This document shows positions 5,561 through 63,457 of a stretch of DNA of 64,000 bases, piece by piece. The stretch lies in the NCBI RefSeq assembly GCF_009914755.1, contig NC_060933.1. One strand, given 5' to 3'. Source of the DNA: the human T2T-CHM13v2.0 reference genome, Homo sapiens. Under the pieces are notes generated by a model that was not told where the DNA came from, did no database searches, and was given only the letters and a program-made list of their open reading frames with translations. Position 1 is the stretch's first letter; the number at the start of each line of letters is the position of its first letter. The translations under genes and the position numbers were made by a program.

Positions 5561-7975
5561 TTTCATTAAGCATTTGCTGTGCCTTTAGTCCGGTCTCTGA
5601 AGCAACCGCATTGGCGCAGTTTTTCCAGACTTATAAGCTTATAAGTCTGAGCCGAGCACAGAACTCGTTATTAGAAAAGGAGGGCGGAAAAAAATAAGAA
5701 TGGAAATATCGTTTTTGAGAGATACAAACAAAAGTAGCAATGCAGTTCAGCATTTAAGCACTTAAGGTGTACAGAGTGTTGGATTACGAGGAGGAAGGAG
5801 GGAGTAGGGAACTCGAAAGATGATCTAGGTCTGGAGAAAGAACTGCCAAGCGCGGTAGGAGTTTGCTATCGTTGAGCGATTGATTTACAGCTAGGACTTC
5901 TGGAGCTCTTCCTCTGGGAACAGCTTTGGTAGGCAATATTGCCTAAGCAGAACCCAAGATTAGCCTAAACCAATCAGGGAGGGATGAAGAGGTGAATAGA
6001 GAATGTTCTCAGCCAAACTCAAGTAAAAATGGGGCAGGTAGGATGGCAGTTTGACCTTTGGATGCCTTAACCTGTGTGTGATGCTTAGGATCATGAGTGG
6101 AAAAGACCTACTTAATAATACAAAGAAGTAGGAAATTTAGCTAGAAGAAATGAAATACGGCTTTTCATTCACTTAAAAAATTCCAACTAAGGGAGAATAG
6201 GGCACTACTGGGGCATATAGGAGTAGTGTCTACCCTAAATTCAAACCTTAAGGAGCCAGGTAGGTAACATATACGAGAGAAGCTGGCTTGACATGAGACA
6301 GTAGAAGTGTTGGAGACTGAGGCTTTGCTGCACTATAGTAGTGCTCTGTGTAAAGGCATTCAGATCCAGCAGTCTCAAGTTACTGTGCCAGCCAGGCGGA
6401 ACCTTTTGATGGATGGGTTGGTGGGTGTGCTGCTAGTTTGCAGCCTCTTGAGTTTTTGACTGCACCATGTTGCTTCCTAAACAAATCAGTCCCCCAATAA
6501 GAACTTAGTGGGAACATGTAATATGCCCGAATATGCAACTTTATAGCGGGTAGGTTGGACTAAACTAGGCTGTGATTGTGAGATGAAGTTGGCCTTAAGT
6601 GATTAGGGGATATTTTCATTGGGTGGTCTCTAACATTTGTCTGAGAATTTTAAAATTGACTTCTTAGACCCTTAGTTTAACCTTCCTCATTTAATAGAAG
6701 AGAAGCAATCCTAGAGAGAAACGACTTGCTTAAAAAAGCACGAGTTAATAGCTGAGCCCCAAGTCTACCCACTCTTAGAATATACCACATTCTGTTGCAG
6801 TGTTTAGTTGTTTTAGCAGGGGTGTAGTGCGATAACAGACAGGCAGCTGTGGCTGTCCCAGGTGGAACAGATTTGGGAGAAGCAGAACCCAAGATCTGTA
6901 GTTGGAAGATTGTCCTGATTCAAGGACAGTGTTACCCTTACTGTTTTATCTCCACTGCCTAGCAGTGTGTCTGACATGTAGTAGATGCTCACGTTTGACA
7001 AAGAAATGGGCAAAAATGTCAGATCCAAGGGTCCTATGTAGAACTGACAGATCTTGGTGACGGGCAGTTAGGGAAGGTAAAAGGGAGAGAATAGAGTTGG
7101 ATGCTCGGTCCTTTGTGCATCAAGCCTTCGGCAAAGGGAAGGAAAGAAATGGTTGCTGACTTAGTTCCTAGGAGGGACTTTCTTAGTGAACTAAGCATTT
7201 GGTGACTTAAAGCCAGATTCCTGACAGTGTAATTGAAGTTGGTAATATGCAGTGGTCAGCATTTCCTTTGGAGTTTAGAGAACTGATTGGACACTTTTTC
7301 TCTCTTAGTTTTCTTTTTCCTTCTTTTTTTTTTTTTTTAAAGATATGCTCTAGTGGTTAAGATTCTATGCTATCCTAAACTGCTTGAGTGTGAGTTTAGC
7401 TTTGTGATCTCAGACAATGTATATAACTACCACCACTGCCCGGCCTCAGTTTTCTCCTTTGTAAAAGTTGCATAATATAATTTATAATGCTATGTGGCAT
7501 CTTTAGGATTACATTAAAGAGTGTCTATAAAGTGCTTACAGTTATATTAAGTATCTAGTGAATTCCAGCTACTATTAGTGGGAGAAAGGAGTTACAAGGC
7601 CTTTAGGCTTTGAAGTGTACTGAGTAAATTGAGGTTTTAGGCGGGAGCTCTCTTTCTGATGTATTATACAGAGATATATAGGCAGTCAGCTATGACAGAT
7701 TGATGAGAGGAAAATAAACTGGCCCCAGCCTTGCGGAAAGCGTCTATGGAGGATGGGCACAGGCAAAAACCAGAGGGGTTAGGGCTAAGCCTTGGATGAC
7801 TCCTTTGGTTGTTAAGAGATCCAGAAAAGAGACGTAGGTTTAGAGGCAGGAAGAAACCAGCTGGGTGAAGTGATATTGAGGTAACCAGCTGTGGGGGATA
7901 TTGAGGAAGAACAGGTGGTCATGAAGGAGGCAGCACAAGTGGAGCTGTTGAAAAGCTCTCAATCATGAGGGCTGA

Positions 7976-43028: not shown

Positions 43029-43226
<198 letters not shown>

Positions 43227-45484: not shown

Positions 45485-45799
45485 GACTATATTCTTCAGC
45501 TTGCCTTGCAGCCAGATGTGGCCATGTGACTAAGTTCTGATGGATGTGAGAAGAAAGATTTGCAACTTTCAGGTCTTGCCTTTAAAGTGAAAGGCATCTT
45601 CTCTTTTCCTTCTTCCAAAGGCTAAAACAGAGACTTGCAAGCAATAGCTAGAGCAACCACTAAGAAAATAGATGGGGGCTAAGTCTGATGATTGTGGAGC
45701 TGCCATCCACTGAGAAAGAAAGAACATTTAACTTATTTCAGCCACTATTATTTAGGGTCTCTGTTATAGCAGCCAAACTGACAACCAATTATGCATCAT

Positions 45800-46920
45800 C
45801 TCTATACCAATGACTCTCAAATTTCTATCTCCAACTCTAACTCTTCCTGGAACTATCTAGCTGTTTACTAGCCATGTCTGCTTTGATATCTAATAGGCAT
45901 CTCAAACTTCACATAGCTATAAGAGAACTCTTAATTCAATCCCTCCCCAAATCTGTTCCTCCCTCAGTGTCCCCATATCGCTGCCCAATCAGAAATCTAG
46001 GCTGTAATGGAAAAGTGTGTATCATTAAAGGAAAAAGAACTGGACTAGAACCAAGGAGATTAGTTCTAGCTCTGCTCTTTCTCCAATTCTTCATAATTGC
46101 CACCTTTCTGTTATATTTACATCTTCTTCCCTTCTCATTCCCAGCATATCACTGCCCAATCAGAAATCTAGGCTTCCTTGTTGATTCCTTTCACCTCCGC
46201 ATCCAAGCATCAGCAAGTACTATAACAAGACCCAAATCTAACTTTTTTCCATCTCTAATACTTCATCAAAGCCACTATCATCTCTCATCTGAGCAACTGA
46301 ATCAGCCCCCTTACTGGTCTCCCTGCTTTTATTCTTGCCCCCCCGCCCCCCCCACCGACATTCCATTCTGTATATTAGCAACCGGAGTGATCTTTCCAAA
46401 ATGCAACTCTTGTCATGTCATTCCTTCCCATTACACTTAGAAAAAATTCCAAATGACTTACCCTGGCTTACATGCATCTGTTTCCTTCTCTAACATCACC
46501 TGTATCACTCTGCCTCTTGCTCACTACTCTACAGCCACAATAGCGCTTCCATTTCTCAAATACACCAAGTTCACCTCCCGGCCCTCACACTGGCTGTTGC
46601 CACTGCCTCTCCCTGATCCTCACATAGCTGACTCCTTGTCATTCAGATTTCAGCTTAGGTGTCATCTCCTTAAAGAGGCCTTCCTTTAACCAATCTAATG
46701 GAGTCCATCATATACCTTGTGTTACAGCAGGCACAGCATATAGAATTCCTGATATTTTTCTTATTTCTTTTGTGTATGTCTATCATCTATCTCCTCTCCC
46801 ACTAGAATGTAAGTTACACGAGAGCCCAGCTCTTCTTGGTCTAGTTTATTGCCAAATCCCAGTGCCTAGTACATGGTAGGTGTTTACTAAATATTTTCTA
46901 AATAAATGAATTGAGGAATT
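45800..46920. mobile_element. L2 (LINE-2) 3' fragment
   Basis: Typical L2 motifs (GACTCTCAAATTTCTATCTCC, GGCATCTCAAACTT, CCCCACTAGAATGTAAG, CCCAGTGCCTAGTACATGGTAGG, AATAAATGAATTGA); boundaries approximate. Confidence 0.7.
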
Positions 46921-47125
46921 TGAAAGAATTTCCATCTCATGGCTTCCATTTTCTCTATGAAGTGGGGAGTAAAGTAATATGCTGGGAATGAGAAGGGAAG
47001 AAGATCTAAATATAACAGAAAGGTGGCAATTATGAAGAACTGGAGAAAGAGCAGAGCTAGAACTCATCTCCTTGGTTCTAGTCCAGTTCTTTTTCCTTTA
47101 ATGATACACACTTTTCCATTACAGC
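46001..47125. repeat. 149-bp inverted repeat (46001-46149 / 46977-47125), 146/149 identical
   Basis: Manual reverse-complement alignment shows 3 mismatches and no gaps. Confidence 0.95.
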
Positions 47126-47393
47126 TTCCATTAAATTCCACTGCATGTAAACAGGATTAGAACTTGAACTAATGTTAATAACAGGACCTAGCTCAGTTAG
47201 CAAATTCATTAATAATAATCCTACTTATACTTAAGGGGCACTTTACTTAGAACTACCATACTCTAAAGTACTGACTGAAGGGATTCTACATTAGGCCCAG
47301 AAAATAAAAGACTAGCATTCATATATTCATGAAACATTCAACCACATTCTCTCTTAAACACAGCCATGAAAGACCATAATTAAAAACCACTTA

Positions 47394-47761
<368 letters not shown>

Positions 47762-47902: not shown

Positions 47903-48232
<330 letters not shown>

Positions 48233-51654: not shown

Positions 51655-59756
<8,102 letters not shown>

Positions 59757-60022: not shown

Positions 60023-60529
<507 letters not shown>

Positions 60530-60669: not shown

Positions 60670-62663
<1,994 letters not shown>

Positions 62664-63199: not shown

Positions 63200-63457
<258 letters not shown>

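What the first reader, a model, noticed from the sequence alone, without database searches (positions are those of the whole stretch)
45974..47125. Templated inverted duplication (149 bp, 98% identical) with a 30-bp target duplication: a template-switch scar and non-Alu hairpin in GNE intron 5
Seen: 46001-46149 is the reverse complement of 46977-47125 (3 mismatches, no gaps, 827-nt spacer). The left copy interrupts an old L2 and is flanked by a 30-bp direct repeat CATATC(G/A)CTGCCCAATCAGAAATCTAGGCT (45974-46003 and 46145-46174). Both junctions overlap the copied segment by microhomology (GCT and CATAT). There is no poly-A tail or TIR. Known: a local inverted templated insert with microhomologies plus re-replicated target fits replication template switching (FoSTeS/MMBIR) or Pol-theta templated insertion, not retrotransposition. 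Inferred: the ~2% divergence implies a young event, and the GNE pre-mRNA could form a ~149-bp near-perfect duplex, better paired than typical Alu-Alu duplexes. It could be an ADAR/PKR/Dicer substrate or promote local inversion. The part of the arm that looks MIR-like cannot explain 98% identity.
Basis: partly seen in the sequence, partly recalled or inferred. Interest (0 to 1): 0.8.

Follow-up and report, generated by a model that had tools for sequence, protein, structure and literature searches.

The report
Inverted copy-paste scar in GNE intron
A 141-149 bp piece of GNE intron 5 was once copied backwards into a spot about 0.8 kb away, duplicating 30 bp of the target; it is a clean scar of a known DNA copying error and is probably harmless.

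Summary
Window 46001-46149 is the reverse complement of 46977-47125 (146 of 149). The left copy is flanked by a 29/30 direct repeat, and both junctions share GCT and CATAT with the copied segment.

- **Uniqueness:** the whole T2T genome holds only these two copies.
- **Direction of copying:** the flanks of the left copy are collinear parts of one ancient interspersed repeat. The left arm is therefore the insert and the right arm the source.
- **Not retrotransposition:** there is no poly-A, no L1 endonuclease-type site and no terminal inverted repeat.
- **Microhomology:** chance microhomology this long at both junctions has p about 2e-4.

The best reading is one microhomology-primed switch-and-return copying event. 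This kind is already described in great apes, including the variant that duplicates the target (PMC7954356). What is unusual here is the template distance (802-951 nt) and the length (149 nt).

Whether the event was replicative or break repair cannot be told from sequence. Age could not be tested because no primate genomes were on hand. Four differences in 179 sites suggest roughly 3-30 My.

The GNE pre-mRNA can fold a 60+58+29 bp stem. That stem is no more stable than many Alu pairs in the same transcript. No editing or duplex data were available. This is a new member of a known kind, of modest interest.

The parts
45974..46003 (.). Target copy 1 (30 bp), the original position of the duplicated target. 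Its last 3 nt (GCT) are also the first 3 nt of the inverted arm.
   Evidence: 29/30 identical to 46145-46174. It lies at the end of the left half of the old repeat.
46001..46149 (.). Left arm, the inserted inverted copy. The net new sequence is 46004-46144 (141 bp). GCT and CATAT at its ends are shared with the target copies.
   Evidence: 146/149 to the reverse complement of 46977-47125. It interrupts a collinear old repeat. Longest A run is 5, with no terminal inverted repeat.
46145..46174 (.). Target copy 2 (30 bp), the re-copied target. Its first 5 nt (CATAT) are the last 5 nt of the arm.
   Evidence: The old-repeat profile resumes inside it at 46163.
46150..46976 (.). Spacer of 827 nt, the loop of the RNA hairpin. 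It holds the continuation of the same old repeat, in the same orientation as the left flank, so it is not inverted in this assembly.
   Evidence: Profile hit 46163-46406 is on the + strand and collinear with 45812-45976 on the + strand.
46977..47125 (.). Right arm, the source (template) of the copy.
   Evidence: No flanking direct repeat was found around it. It is the only other genomic match of the left arm.
45812..45976 (+). Left half of the interrupted ancient interspersed repeat (profile positions 3-179).
   Evidence: nhmmer E 3.6e-19 with a profile of 13 genomic paralogues. There are 12 non-self genomic matches at 72-83%.
46163..46406 (+). Right half of the same ancient repeat (profile positions 221-485).
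   Evidence: nhmmer E 9.3e-11. There are 5 non-self genomic matches at 72-84%.
46001..47125 (-). Predicted hairpin in the GNE pre-mRNA. The stem is 149 positions (146 Watson-Crick, 1 G-U, 2 mismatches; helices of 60, 58 and 29 bp) with an 827-nt loop.
   Evidence: The MFE and centroid folds of 45990-47136 (- strand) both pair the arms, MFE -473.4 kcal/mol. Duplex energy is -266.9 kcal/mol.

Best explanation
A single DNA-templated, microhomology-primed switch-and-return copying event.

How it went:
1. A growing 3' DNA end inside an old interspersed repeat left its template after ...AGGCT (46003).
2. It paired through GCT with the complementary strand about 0.95 kb away (47125).
3. It copied 141-149 nt backwards, down to 46977.
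4. It came back through CATAT to a point 30 nt behind where it had left. Those 30 nt were therefore copied twice.

Read on the other strand, the same product arises if a 3' end ending in ATATG snaps back onto its own strand about 0.8 kb upstream.

The outcome is a 171-bp insertion, made of a 141-bp inverted copy plus a second 30-mer. It created a 149-bp inverted repeat with an 827-bp spacer in GNE intron 5.

Shown: the anatomy, the uniqueness, the direction (the left arm is the copy) and the microhomologies.

Inferred: that one event made it all, and that the template was DNA. Whether the 3' end belonged to a stalled or collapsed fork (FoSTeS/MMBIR-like) or to a resected, staggered double-strand break (polymerase-theta-type snap-back synthesis) is not decided by the sequence.

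The scar is most likely neutral. Its one predictable consequence is a long intronic RNA duplex that should be an ADAR substrate if it forms.
For: - Arms match 146/149 with sharp ends, and the target repeat matches 29/30.
- Only two copies exist in the 3.1-Gb assembly.
- The flanks of the left arm are two collinear, same-strand halves of one old repeat family:
  - profile 3-179 maps to 45812-45976 and profile 221-485 maps to 46163-46406;
  - 2 of 12 fetched paralogues (L005, L010) span both sides, with the window about 130 nt longer between the matched blocks.
- There is no poly-A (longest A run 5), no TTTT/A-like target edge and no terminal inverted repeat.
- Microhomology of 3 and 5 nt at the two junctions has joint chance about 2.4e-4.
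- No other local repeat hints at extra switches: 3 direct families and 2 inverted pairs in 45500-47600, all accounted for.
[quoted passage not shown] Template-switch patterns up to 318 bp are reported in human haplotypes (preprint 10.1101/2021.11.26.470150, passages read).
Against: - No outgroup or second human haplotype was available, so the empty site is inferred, not seen.
- The template lies 802-951 nt from the target. That is far beyond the +-100 to 150 nt that the published short-range searches examine (PMC7954356, PMC8421209, preprint 10.1101/2021.11.26.470150). Membership in the 'same fork, short-range' class is therefore not established.
- In 794 high-confidence human-chimp events, types with point 4 before point 1 were not seen (PMC5453318, section 6 read). 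The later study attributes this to the method.
- Two of the 3 arm differences are transversions. This is odd for neutral drift but n=3. They could be copying errors, which would make the event younger than the estimate.
- An RNA template of identical sequence cannot be excluded.
Confidence: 0.8

Rival explanations
1. An RNA-templated patch. The nascent GNE pre-mRNA was transcribed through 47125-46977 about 0.8 kb before the polymerase reached the target. It then served as template for reverse transcription from the broken minus-strand 3' end (...ATATG pairs with CAUAU in the pre-mRNA). This would be a local version of class 2 templated sequence insertions.
For: - The left arm read on the + strand equals the sense GNE intron RNA of the right arm, so the geometry works with a transcript known to exist.
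- Microhomology at the junctions fits class 2 features (PMC5110952, abstract and passages read).
Against: - Class 2 insertions are described without target duplication and from distant donors (PMC5110952). Here there is a 30-bp duplication and a donor 0.8 kb away in cis.
- A DNA template of the same sequence is equally close.
- Nothing in the sequence, such as a splice junction or an untemplated tail, points to RNA.
Confidence: 0.08
2. Capture of a ready-made DNA fragment at a staggered break by microhomology-mediated end joining, rather than priming and copying at the break. The fragment would be a displaced flap, an Okazaki-sized or nucleosome-sized piece, or over-replicated DNA from 46977-47125.
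For: - The insert is 141-149 nt, the size range of such fragments (sequence; the size comparison is from general knowledge).
- The 30-bp target duplication suits a staggered break that was filled in.
Against: - The source is intact, so the fragment would itself have to be a copy.
- Both junctions lie exactly at microhomologies, as expected for priming or annealing of a nascent end.
- This reading differs from the best explanation only in the order of synthesis and joining.
Confidence: 0.07
3. An L1-mediated insertion in trans of a non-polyadenylated intronic RNA fragment (class 1 type, target-primed reverse transcription).
For: A target-site duplication is present. Class 1 insertions have duplications of at least 5 bp (PMC5110952).
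Against: - There is no A tract (longest A run 5, longest T run 3).
- The target edges read TCCC|CATATC and AGGCT|TCCTTG, not TTTT/A.
- A 30-bp duplication is longer than usual (recalled).
- The donor lies 0.8 kb away in cis.
Confidence: 0.02
4. Two old copies of a repeat family, or a pre-existing imperfect inverted repeat made alike by gene conversion (the classic quasi-palindrome correction).
For:
- nhmmer gave a non-significant hit of the old-repeat profile inside the left arm (46047-46095, E 0.71).
Against: - No further copy was found in the genome even at E<=10.
- The left arm is extra sequence between two collinear halves of another repeat and is bracketed by a 30-bp duplication. Conversion does not produce that.
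- Similarity ends abruptly at both arm ends.
Confidence: 0.02

Closest known systems
Short-range template-switch mutations, four-point model (Loytynoja & Goldman 2017, PMC5453318; Walker et al. 2021, PMC7954356)
   Same: - One switch-and-return event inserts a reverse-complement copy of nearby sequence and creates an inverted repeat.
- When the return point lies behind the departure point (4 precedes 1), the result is one large insertion plus a direct repeat. That is exactly what is seen here, in order 4-1-3-2 or its mirror 3-2-4-1.
   Different: - The published sets have a median copied length of 12 nt and a maximum of 128 in the great-ape gold standard (PMC7954356). The longest in human haplotypes is 318 bp (preprint 10.1101/2021.11.26.470150).
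- Those studies look for templates only within about +-100 to 150 nt.
- Here the copy is 149 nt and the template is 802-951 nt away, so 'same replication fork' is not a given.
MMBIR/FoSTeS templated insertions (MMB-TI; Osia et al. 2021, PMC8421209)
   Same: An inverted insertion close to its template, flanked by microhomologies at both junctions.
   Different: - MMB-TIs as defined and searched have templates within 100 bp.
- Disease-scale FoSTeS/MMBIR events involve kb-Mb copy-number changes and often several switches.
- This is a simple 171-bp event at an intermediate range.
Polymerase-theta / synthesis-dependent microhomology-mediated end joining with snap-back templated inserts (PMC2943611, PMC7165422, PMC11724301; search listings only)
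   Same: A 3' end primes on a short complementary stretch in cis, is extended, then pairs with the other end through a terminal microhomology.
   Different: Reported inserts are mostly a few to a few tens of nt (5-34 bp in the yeast study's abstract). Here the insert is 141-149 nt, from about 0.8 kb away, with a 30-bp duplication that needs overlapping ends.
Templated sequence insertion polymorphisms (Onozawa & Aplan 2016, PMC5110952)
   Same: A copied, non-repeat genomic segment inserted elsewhere with the donor left intact. It has a target duplication like class 1 and microhomology like class 2.
   Different: - It fits neither class. Class 1 needs poly-A and TTTT/A, both absent here. Class 2 lacks a target duplication, which is present here.
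- Those donors are distant and thought to be RNA-derived, whereas here the donor is 0.8 kb away.
Inverted-Alu duplexes and other intronic long dsRNAs (dsRNAscan preprint, PMC11838218); template-switch-born miRNA hairpins (PMC10710096, abstract read)
   Same: - An intramolecular duplex in an intron of an expressed gene.
- A hairpin born in one mutational step.
   Different: - It is not repeat-derived and is 98% paired, putting it among the 31,017 of 5,134,754 predictions above 96% paired.
- At 149 bp it is below the >300 bp used for MDA5 candidates.
- The stem is far longer, and the 827-nt loop far larger, than a miRNA precursor.

Membership tests
Template-switch mutation (four-point model) | The inserted fragment is the reverse complement of nearby sequence | tested here: met
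   146/149 to the reverse complement of 46977-47125
Template-switch mutation (four-point model) | One switch-and-return explains the whole difference from the ancestral sequence | tested here: inconclusive
   The flanks are collinear halves of one old repeat and no other local repeats were found. The ancestral allele itself was not available.
Template-switch mutation (four-point model) | Short range: template within tens to hundreds of nt (same fork) | tested here: not met
   The template lies 802-951 nt from the target in the pre-insertion sequence (coordinates). Published search spaces are about +-100 to 150 nt (PMC7954356; preprint 10.1101/2021.11.26.470150).
Template-switch mutation (four-point model) | Derived state absent in an outgroup | not testable with these tools
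   No primate genomes are held. The genome search states that the assembly has no relatives here.
MMBIR/FoSTeS templated insertion | Microhomology at both junctions | tested here: met
   GCT and CATAT, joint chance about 2.4e-4
MMBIR/FoSTeS templated insertion | Dependence on replication or break-induced replication | not testable with these tools
   This needs experiment. Sequence alone does not separate fork-based from break-based priming.
Polymerase-theta-mediated end joining with templated insert | Short terminal microhomology and an insert templated from flanking DNA in cis | tested here: met
   However, the insert (141-149 nt) and the distance (about 0.8 kb) far exceed typical reports (PMC11724301 abstract in the listing: 5-34 bp).
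L1-mediated insertion (class 1 templated insertion) | Target-site duplication | tested here: met
   30 bp, 29/30
L1-mediated insertion (class 1 templated insertion) | Poly-A tail after a polyadenylation signal | tested here: not met
   Longest A run is 5 and longest T run is 3 in the 141-bp insert, and neither sits at an end
L1-mediated insertion (class 1 templated insertion) | Insertion at a TTTT/A-type site | tested here: not met
   The edges read TCCC|CATATC and AGGCT|TCCTTG
Class 2 templated insertion (RNA-derived patch at a break) | No target duplication and a distant donor | tested here: not met
   A 30-bp duplication is present and the donor is 0.8 kb away in cis. Features as given in PMC5110952.
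Interspersed repeat / mobile element copies | Further copies elsewhere in the genome | tested here: not met
   Only the two arms matched, with 2 of 2 candidates scored, also at E<=10 with a 401-nt query. The tool warns that very common words are skipped, but it did find the 98% partner.
ADAR-edited intronic long dsRNA | A long intramolecular duplex in a transcribed strand | tested here: met
   MFE and centroid both pair the arms. Helices are 60/58/29 bp with energy -266.9 kcal/mol. This is prediction only.
ADAR-edited intronic long dsRNA | A-to-I editing clusters on both arms | not testable with these tools
   No editing catalogue was on hand. The only GNE hyper-editing found in print concerns the 3'UTR (PMC5355282, passages read).

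The most novel reading that the evidence does not exclude
The template was not DNA but the nascent GNE pre-mRNA. A transcription-associated break at 45974-46003 would have been patched by reverse transcription of the intron RNA that had emerged about 0.8 kb earlier from the same polymerase. That would make this a fixed germline example of transcript-templated break repair in the human lineage. The geometry (ATATG-3' on CAUAU, with a sense transcript known to exist) allows it, and nothing in the sequence excludes it.

A milder novel reading: events of this range (about 1 kb) form a class that current tools miss systematically. Template-switch tools look only within about 150 nt, and structural-variant callers see just a 171-bp insertion.
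Probability: 0.08. Interest if true: 0.65.

Novelty: new member of a known kind. Interest (0 to 1): 0.3.

Why it matters
This is a very clean, fully readable example of a switch-and-return copying error at an in-between scale: a 149-nt copy, a template 0.8-0.95 kb away and a 30-bp re-copied target. Published short-range searches would not find it, because they look only within about 100-150 nt. A structural-variant call would list it as a plain 171-bp insertion.

If many such events exist, they are an under-counted source of new long hairpins in introns. That extends what has been shown for short template-switch hairpins and new miRNAs (PMC10710096).

For GNE itself there is no sign of consequence. 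The hairpin lies wholly inside intron 5, 803 nt from exon 5 and about 2.9 kb from exon 6. It encloses no exon. It is no more stable than the many inverted Alu pairs of the same pre-mRNA.

Tried and rejected
- **Primate or other mammalian orthologues:** none held. The assembly 'has no relatives here'. The age and the empty site are therefore untested.
- **MAFFT alignment of the window with two spanning paralogues:** it split the gap and did not place the insertion cleanly. I relied instead on blastn block coordinates and an nhmmer profile.
- **Rfam scan of 45500-47600 at E<=1:** 7 matches, none reaching a gathering score. The two on the right arm are chance-level (MIR2118, 20.1 bits against 85; DAOA-AS1_2, 17 bits against 43). 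The others belong to the neighbouring Alu.
- **Paralogue search for the right arm's surroundings (46900-47300):** nothing but the two arms. I therefore could not show independently that the right arm sits in its native repeat context, nor confirm its 'MIR-like' look.
- **Literature searches for this locus:** these combined GNE with inverted repeat, dsRNA, inverted duplication, templated insertion, A-to-I editing and intron 5. No paper on this structure turned up. One hit was a false match in a reference list (PMC13501140). One concerns GNE 3'UTR hyper-editing (PMC5355282). Supplementary tables such as the dsRNAscan predictions were not opened and may list this duplex.
- **The 18 nt left of the 30-mer:** they resemble the end of the insert in 10 of 18 positions (D2). 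Both stretches are pyrimidine-rich, so I treat this as possibly helpful homeology but not as evidence.
- **Classic quasi-palindrome correction and L1-mediated insertion:** both considered and rejected (see rivals).

Full report
**1. The observation**

Reading the sequence and the repeat finder confirm the anatomy. A base-by-base comparison shows that window 46001-46149 is the reverse complement of 46977-47125. It has 146 of 149 matches, no gaps and 827 nt between the arms.

The three differences lie at 46061/47065, 46086/47040 and 46120/47006. Two are transversions. Similarity ends abruptly at both arm ends (extension strings), although repeat finder stretches the pair to 160 nt at 96%.

The left arm is bracketed by a direct repeat, 45974-46003 and 46145-46174, with 29 of 30 matches. 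The one difference is G/A within a CpG. The last 3 nt of the first 30-mer (GCT) and the first 5 nt of the second (CATAT) are also the ends of the arm. The net new sequence is therefore 46004-46144 (141 bp).

By the hub's exon table the feature lies between exons 47929-48141 and 43030-43117, which is intron 5 of NM_005476.7.

**2. Is it more than chance, and is it a repeat family?**

- A search of the whole 3.1-Gb assembly with the left arm found two places only: itself and the right arm (2 candidates, 2 scored).
- A 401-nt query around the right arm at E<=10 again found only itself and the left arm. The tool warns that very common words are skipped, but it did find the 98% partner, so another copy that similar would have been seen.
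- Within the window, 139 inverted pairs of at least 80 nt lie within 5 kb of each other. Among the 25 longest listed, the other 24 are 72-89% complementary and this one is 96% over 160 nt.
- A scan of my own looked for perfect inverted matches within 3 kb that are not multicopy or low-complexity. Of 422 raw matches, 7 rows survived. Three are segments of this pair (60, 29 and 24 nt), three are one short palindrome at 5626-5649, and one is a 17-mer at 57629/58198.
- Rfam has nothing at a gathering score on either arm.

**3. Which arm is the copy?**

The left flank (45800-46003) has 12 non-self genomic matches at 72-83% identity. The right flank (46145-46420) has 5 at 72-84%. Both are therefore parts of an ancient, abundant interspersed repeat.

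Of 12 paralogous loci fetched, two (L005 and L010) match on both sides of the left arm, on one strand and in order. The window is 131 and 129 nt longer than the paralogue between the matched blocks.

A search with the spanning paralogue gave 123 candidates, of which 40 were scored and all matched. From these I took the 13 with long coverage and built a profile. The result:
- profile positions 3-179 align to 45812-45976 (E 3.6e-19);
- profile positions 221-485 align to 46163-46406 (E 9.3e-11);
- both hits are on the + strand.

Position 46163 lies in the second 30-mer, and its twin in the first is 45992. Without the 171 bp the old repeat therefore reads straight through, with about 26 profile positions missing at this spot. 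The left arm is thus an insertion into one old repeat, and the 30-mer is that repeat's own sequence present twice.

I recognise the family as the 3' part of L2. That name comes from recall, not from a tool.

The same result shows that the spacer has the orientation of the outside flank, so it has not been inverted in this assembly. No direct repeat brackets the right arm.

**4. What kind of insertion?**

- The insert has no A or T tract (longest runs 5 and 3).
- Its ends are not inverted repeats of each other.
- The target edges read TCCC|CATATC and AGGCT|TCCTTG, not the TTTT/A preferred by the L1 endonuclease.

Two of the three features that define L1-mediated templated insertions (PMC5110952) are therefore absent.

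Chance microhomology of at least 3 and at least 5 nt at two junctions has a joint probability of about 2.4e-4. This argues for priming or annealing at both joins.

**5. Mechanism**

The simplest account is one switch-and-return. A 3' end leaves after ...GGCT at 46003 and primes through GCT on the complementary strand at 47125. It copies back to 46977, then re-anneals through CATAT 30 nt behind its point of departure, so the 30 nt are copied again. In the pre-insertion sequence the template lay 802-951 nt from the target.

In the four-point notation this is order 4-1-3-2, or the mirror 3-2-4-1.
- The first survey did not see types with 4 before 1 among 794 high-confidence human-chimp events. 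It noted that these need the new duplex to be reopened (PMC5453318, section 6 read in full).
[quoted passage not shown] It described them as single large insertions with a direct repeat, likened them to strand invasion in break-induced replication, and explained why the earlier method missed them (PMC7954356, passages read).
- Copied lengths there have a median of 12 and a maximum of 128. A human haplotype survey reports up to 318 bp (preprint 10.1101/2021.11.26.470150, passages read).

These searches examine only about 100-150 nt around the cluster, and so does the MMBIR-insertion search tool, which uses 100 bp (PMC8421209, passages read). The event here is therefore of a described kind. It is ordinary in length at the upper end and unusual in range.

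Sequence cannot say whether the 3' end came from a stalled or collapsed fork or from a resected, staggered break. In the break model, a minus-strand 3' tail ending in ATATG snaps back on its own resected strand 0.8 kb upstream. The overlapping 30-nt ends then give the duplication.

An RNA template is geometrically just as possible, because the sense GNE pre-mRNA carries the same sequence. I hold it as a low-probability rival. Described RNA-derived patches lack target duplications and come from distant donors (PMC5110952).

**6. Age**

There are four differences in 179 compared sites (149 + 30). This gives K = 2.3%, with a Poisson 95% range of 0.6-6.0%. That corresponds to about 11 My (3-30) at 1e-9 per site per year, and twice that at 0.5e-9.

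If some arm differences are copying errors, the event is younger. If conversion has kept the arms alike, it is older. No outgroup was available, so this remains an estimate.

**7. RNA consequence**

Folded as the GNE pre-mRNA, 45990-47136 pairs the two arms in both the minimum-energy and the centroid structure. The MFE is -473.4 kcal/mol; no shuffles are given above 1000 nt.

On this strand the stem has 146 Watson-Crick pairs, one G-U and two mismatches. Its helices are 60, 58 and 29 bp, the duplex energy is -266.9 kcal/mol, and the arms hold 41 and 52 adenosines.

- The 24 other long inverted pairs in the window are far less well paired (72-89%).
- Yet they are as stable or more stable, with totals of -272 to -476 kcal/mol, and -1.33 to -1.76 per nt against -1.72 here.
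- Several contain runs of 52-57 contiguous pairs.

In a genome-wide prediction, 31,017 of 5,134,754 dsRNAs are above 96% paired. Candidates for MDA5 were set at above 300 bp, and 96% of predicted dsRNAs in protein-coding genes are intronic (PMC11838218, passages read).

A 149-bp intronic stem is thus a plausible nuclear ADAR substrate (general knowledge of ADAR, recalled) and an unlikely trigger of cytoplasmic sensors. It encloses no exon: it lies 803 nt from exon 5 and about 2.9 kb from exon 6. I had no editing, duplex or small-RNA data. The only GNE hyper-editing I found in print is in the 3'UTR (PMC5355282).

**8. Novelty and verdict**

It is a new member of a known kind.

Two searches for this locus in print found nothing on it. 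Supplementary prediction tables were not opened and may list the duplex.

Interest is modest. It is a textbook-clean mid-range example that current detection windows would miss, but it is a single event, probably neutral, with no functional evidence.

Noticed in passing
window 45694-45721 (- strand): A 28-nt stretch matches profile positions 173-200 of the old repeat in inverted orientation (E 0.0014). This is roughly the part of the profile missing at the insertion target (positions 180-220). It could be an unrelated inverted fragment of the same family or the trace of an older rearrangement.
   Followed up: no
window 46339-46357: A C-rich tract (C7 G C8 A CC) lies inside the spacer. On the GNE-sense strand it is a G8-C-G7 run that could form a quadruplex, in DNA on the minus strand or in the hairpin loop of the pre-mRNA. 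It lies about 165 nt from the target in the pre-insertion sequence, so it is not at a switch point.
   Followed up: no
window 61874-62053 and 62323-62502: An inverted pair, Alu-like by recall, only 269 nt apart. It is 88% complementary with a run of 57 contiguous pairs and -316 kcal/mol as GNE-sense RNA. It is a stronger and tighter duplex than the finding, in a more 5' GNE intron between exons 63201-63406 and 60040-60491.
   Followed up: partly
window 47395-47600: An Alu starts about 270 nt right of the right arm: a direct repeat of its two monomers (D1), with sub-threshold Rfam matches to SRP RNA and to Alu-derived miRNA families (mir-1268, 53.8 bits against 83).
   Followed up: no
window 46061, 46086, 46120 versus 47065, 47040, 47006: At all three arm differences the source-arm equivalent is G and the copy has T, A or C. 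With n=3 this is not significant. It would fit misincorporation during error-prone copying if an outgroup shows the source arm to be ancestral.
   Followed up: no
window 5626-5649: A short near-perfect palindrome (CAGACTTATAAGCTTATA...) in unique sequence near the CLTA 5' region.
   Followed up: no
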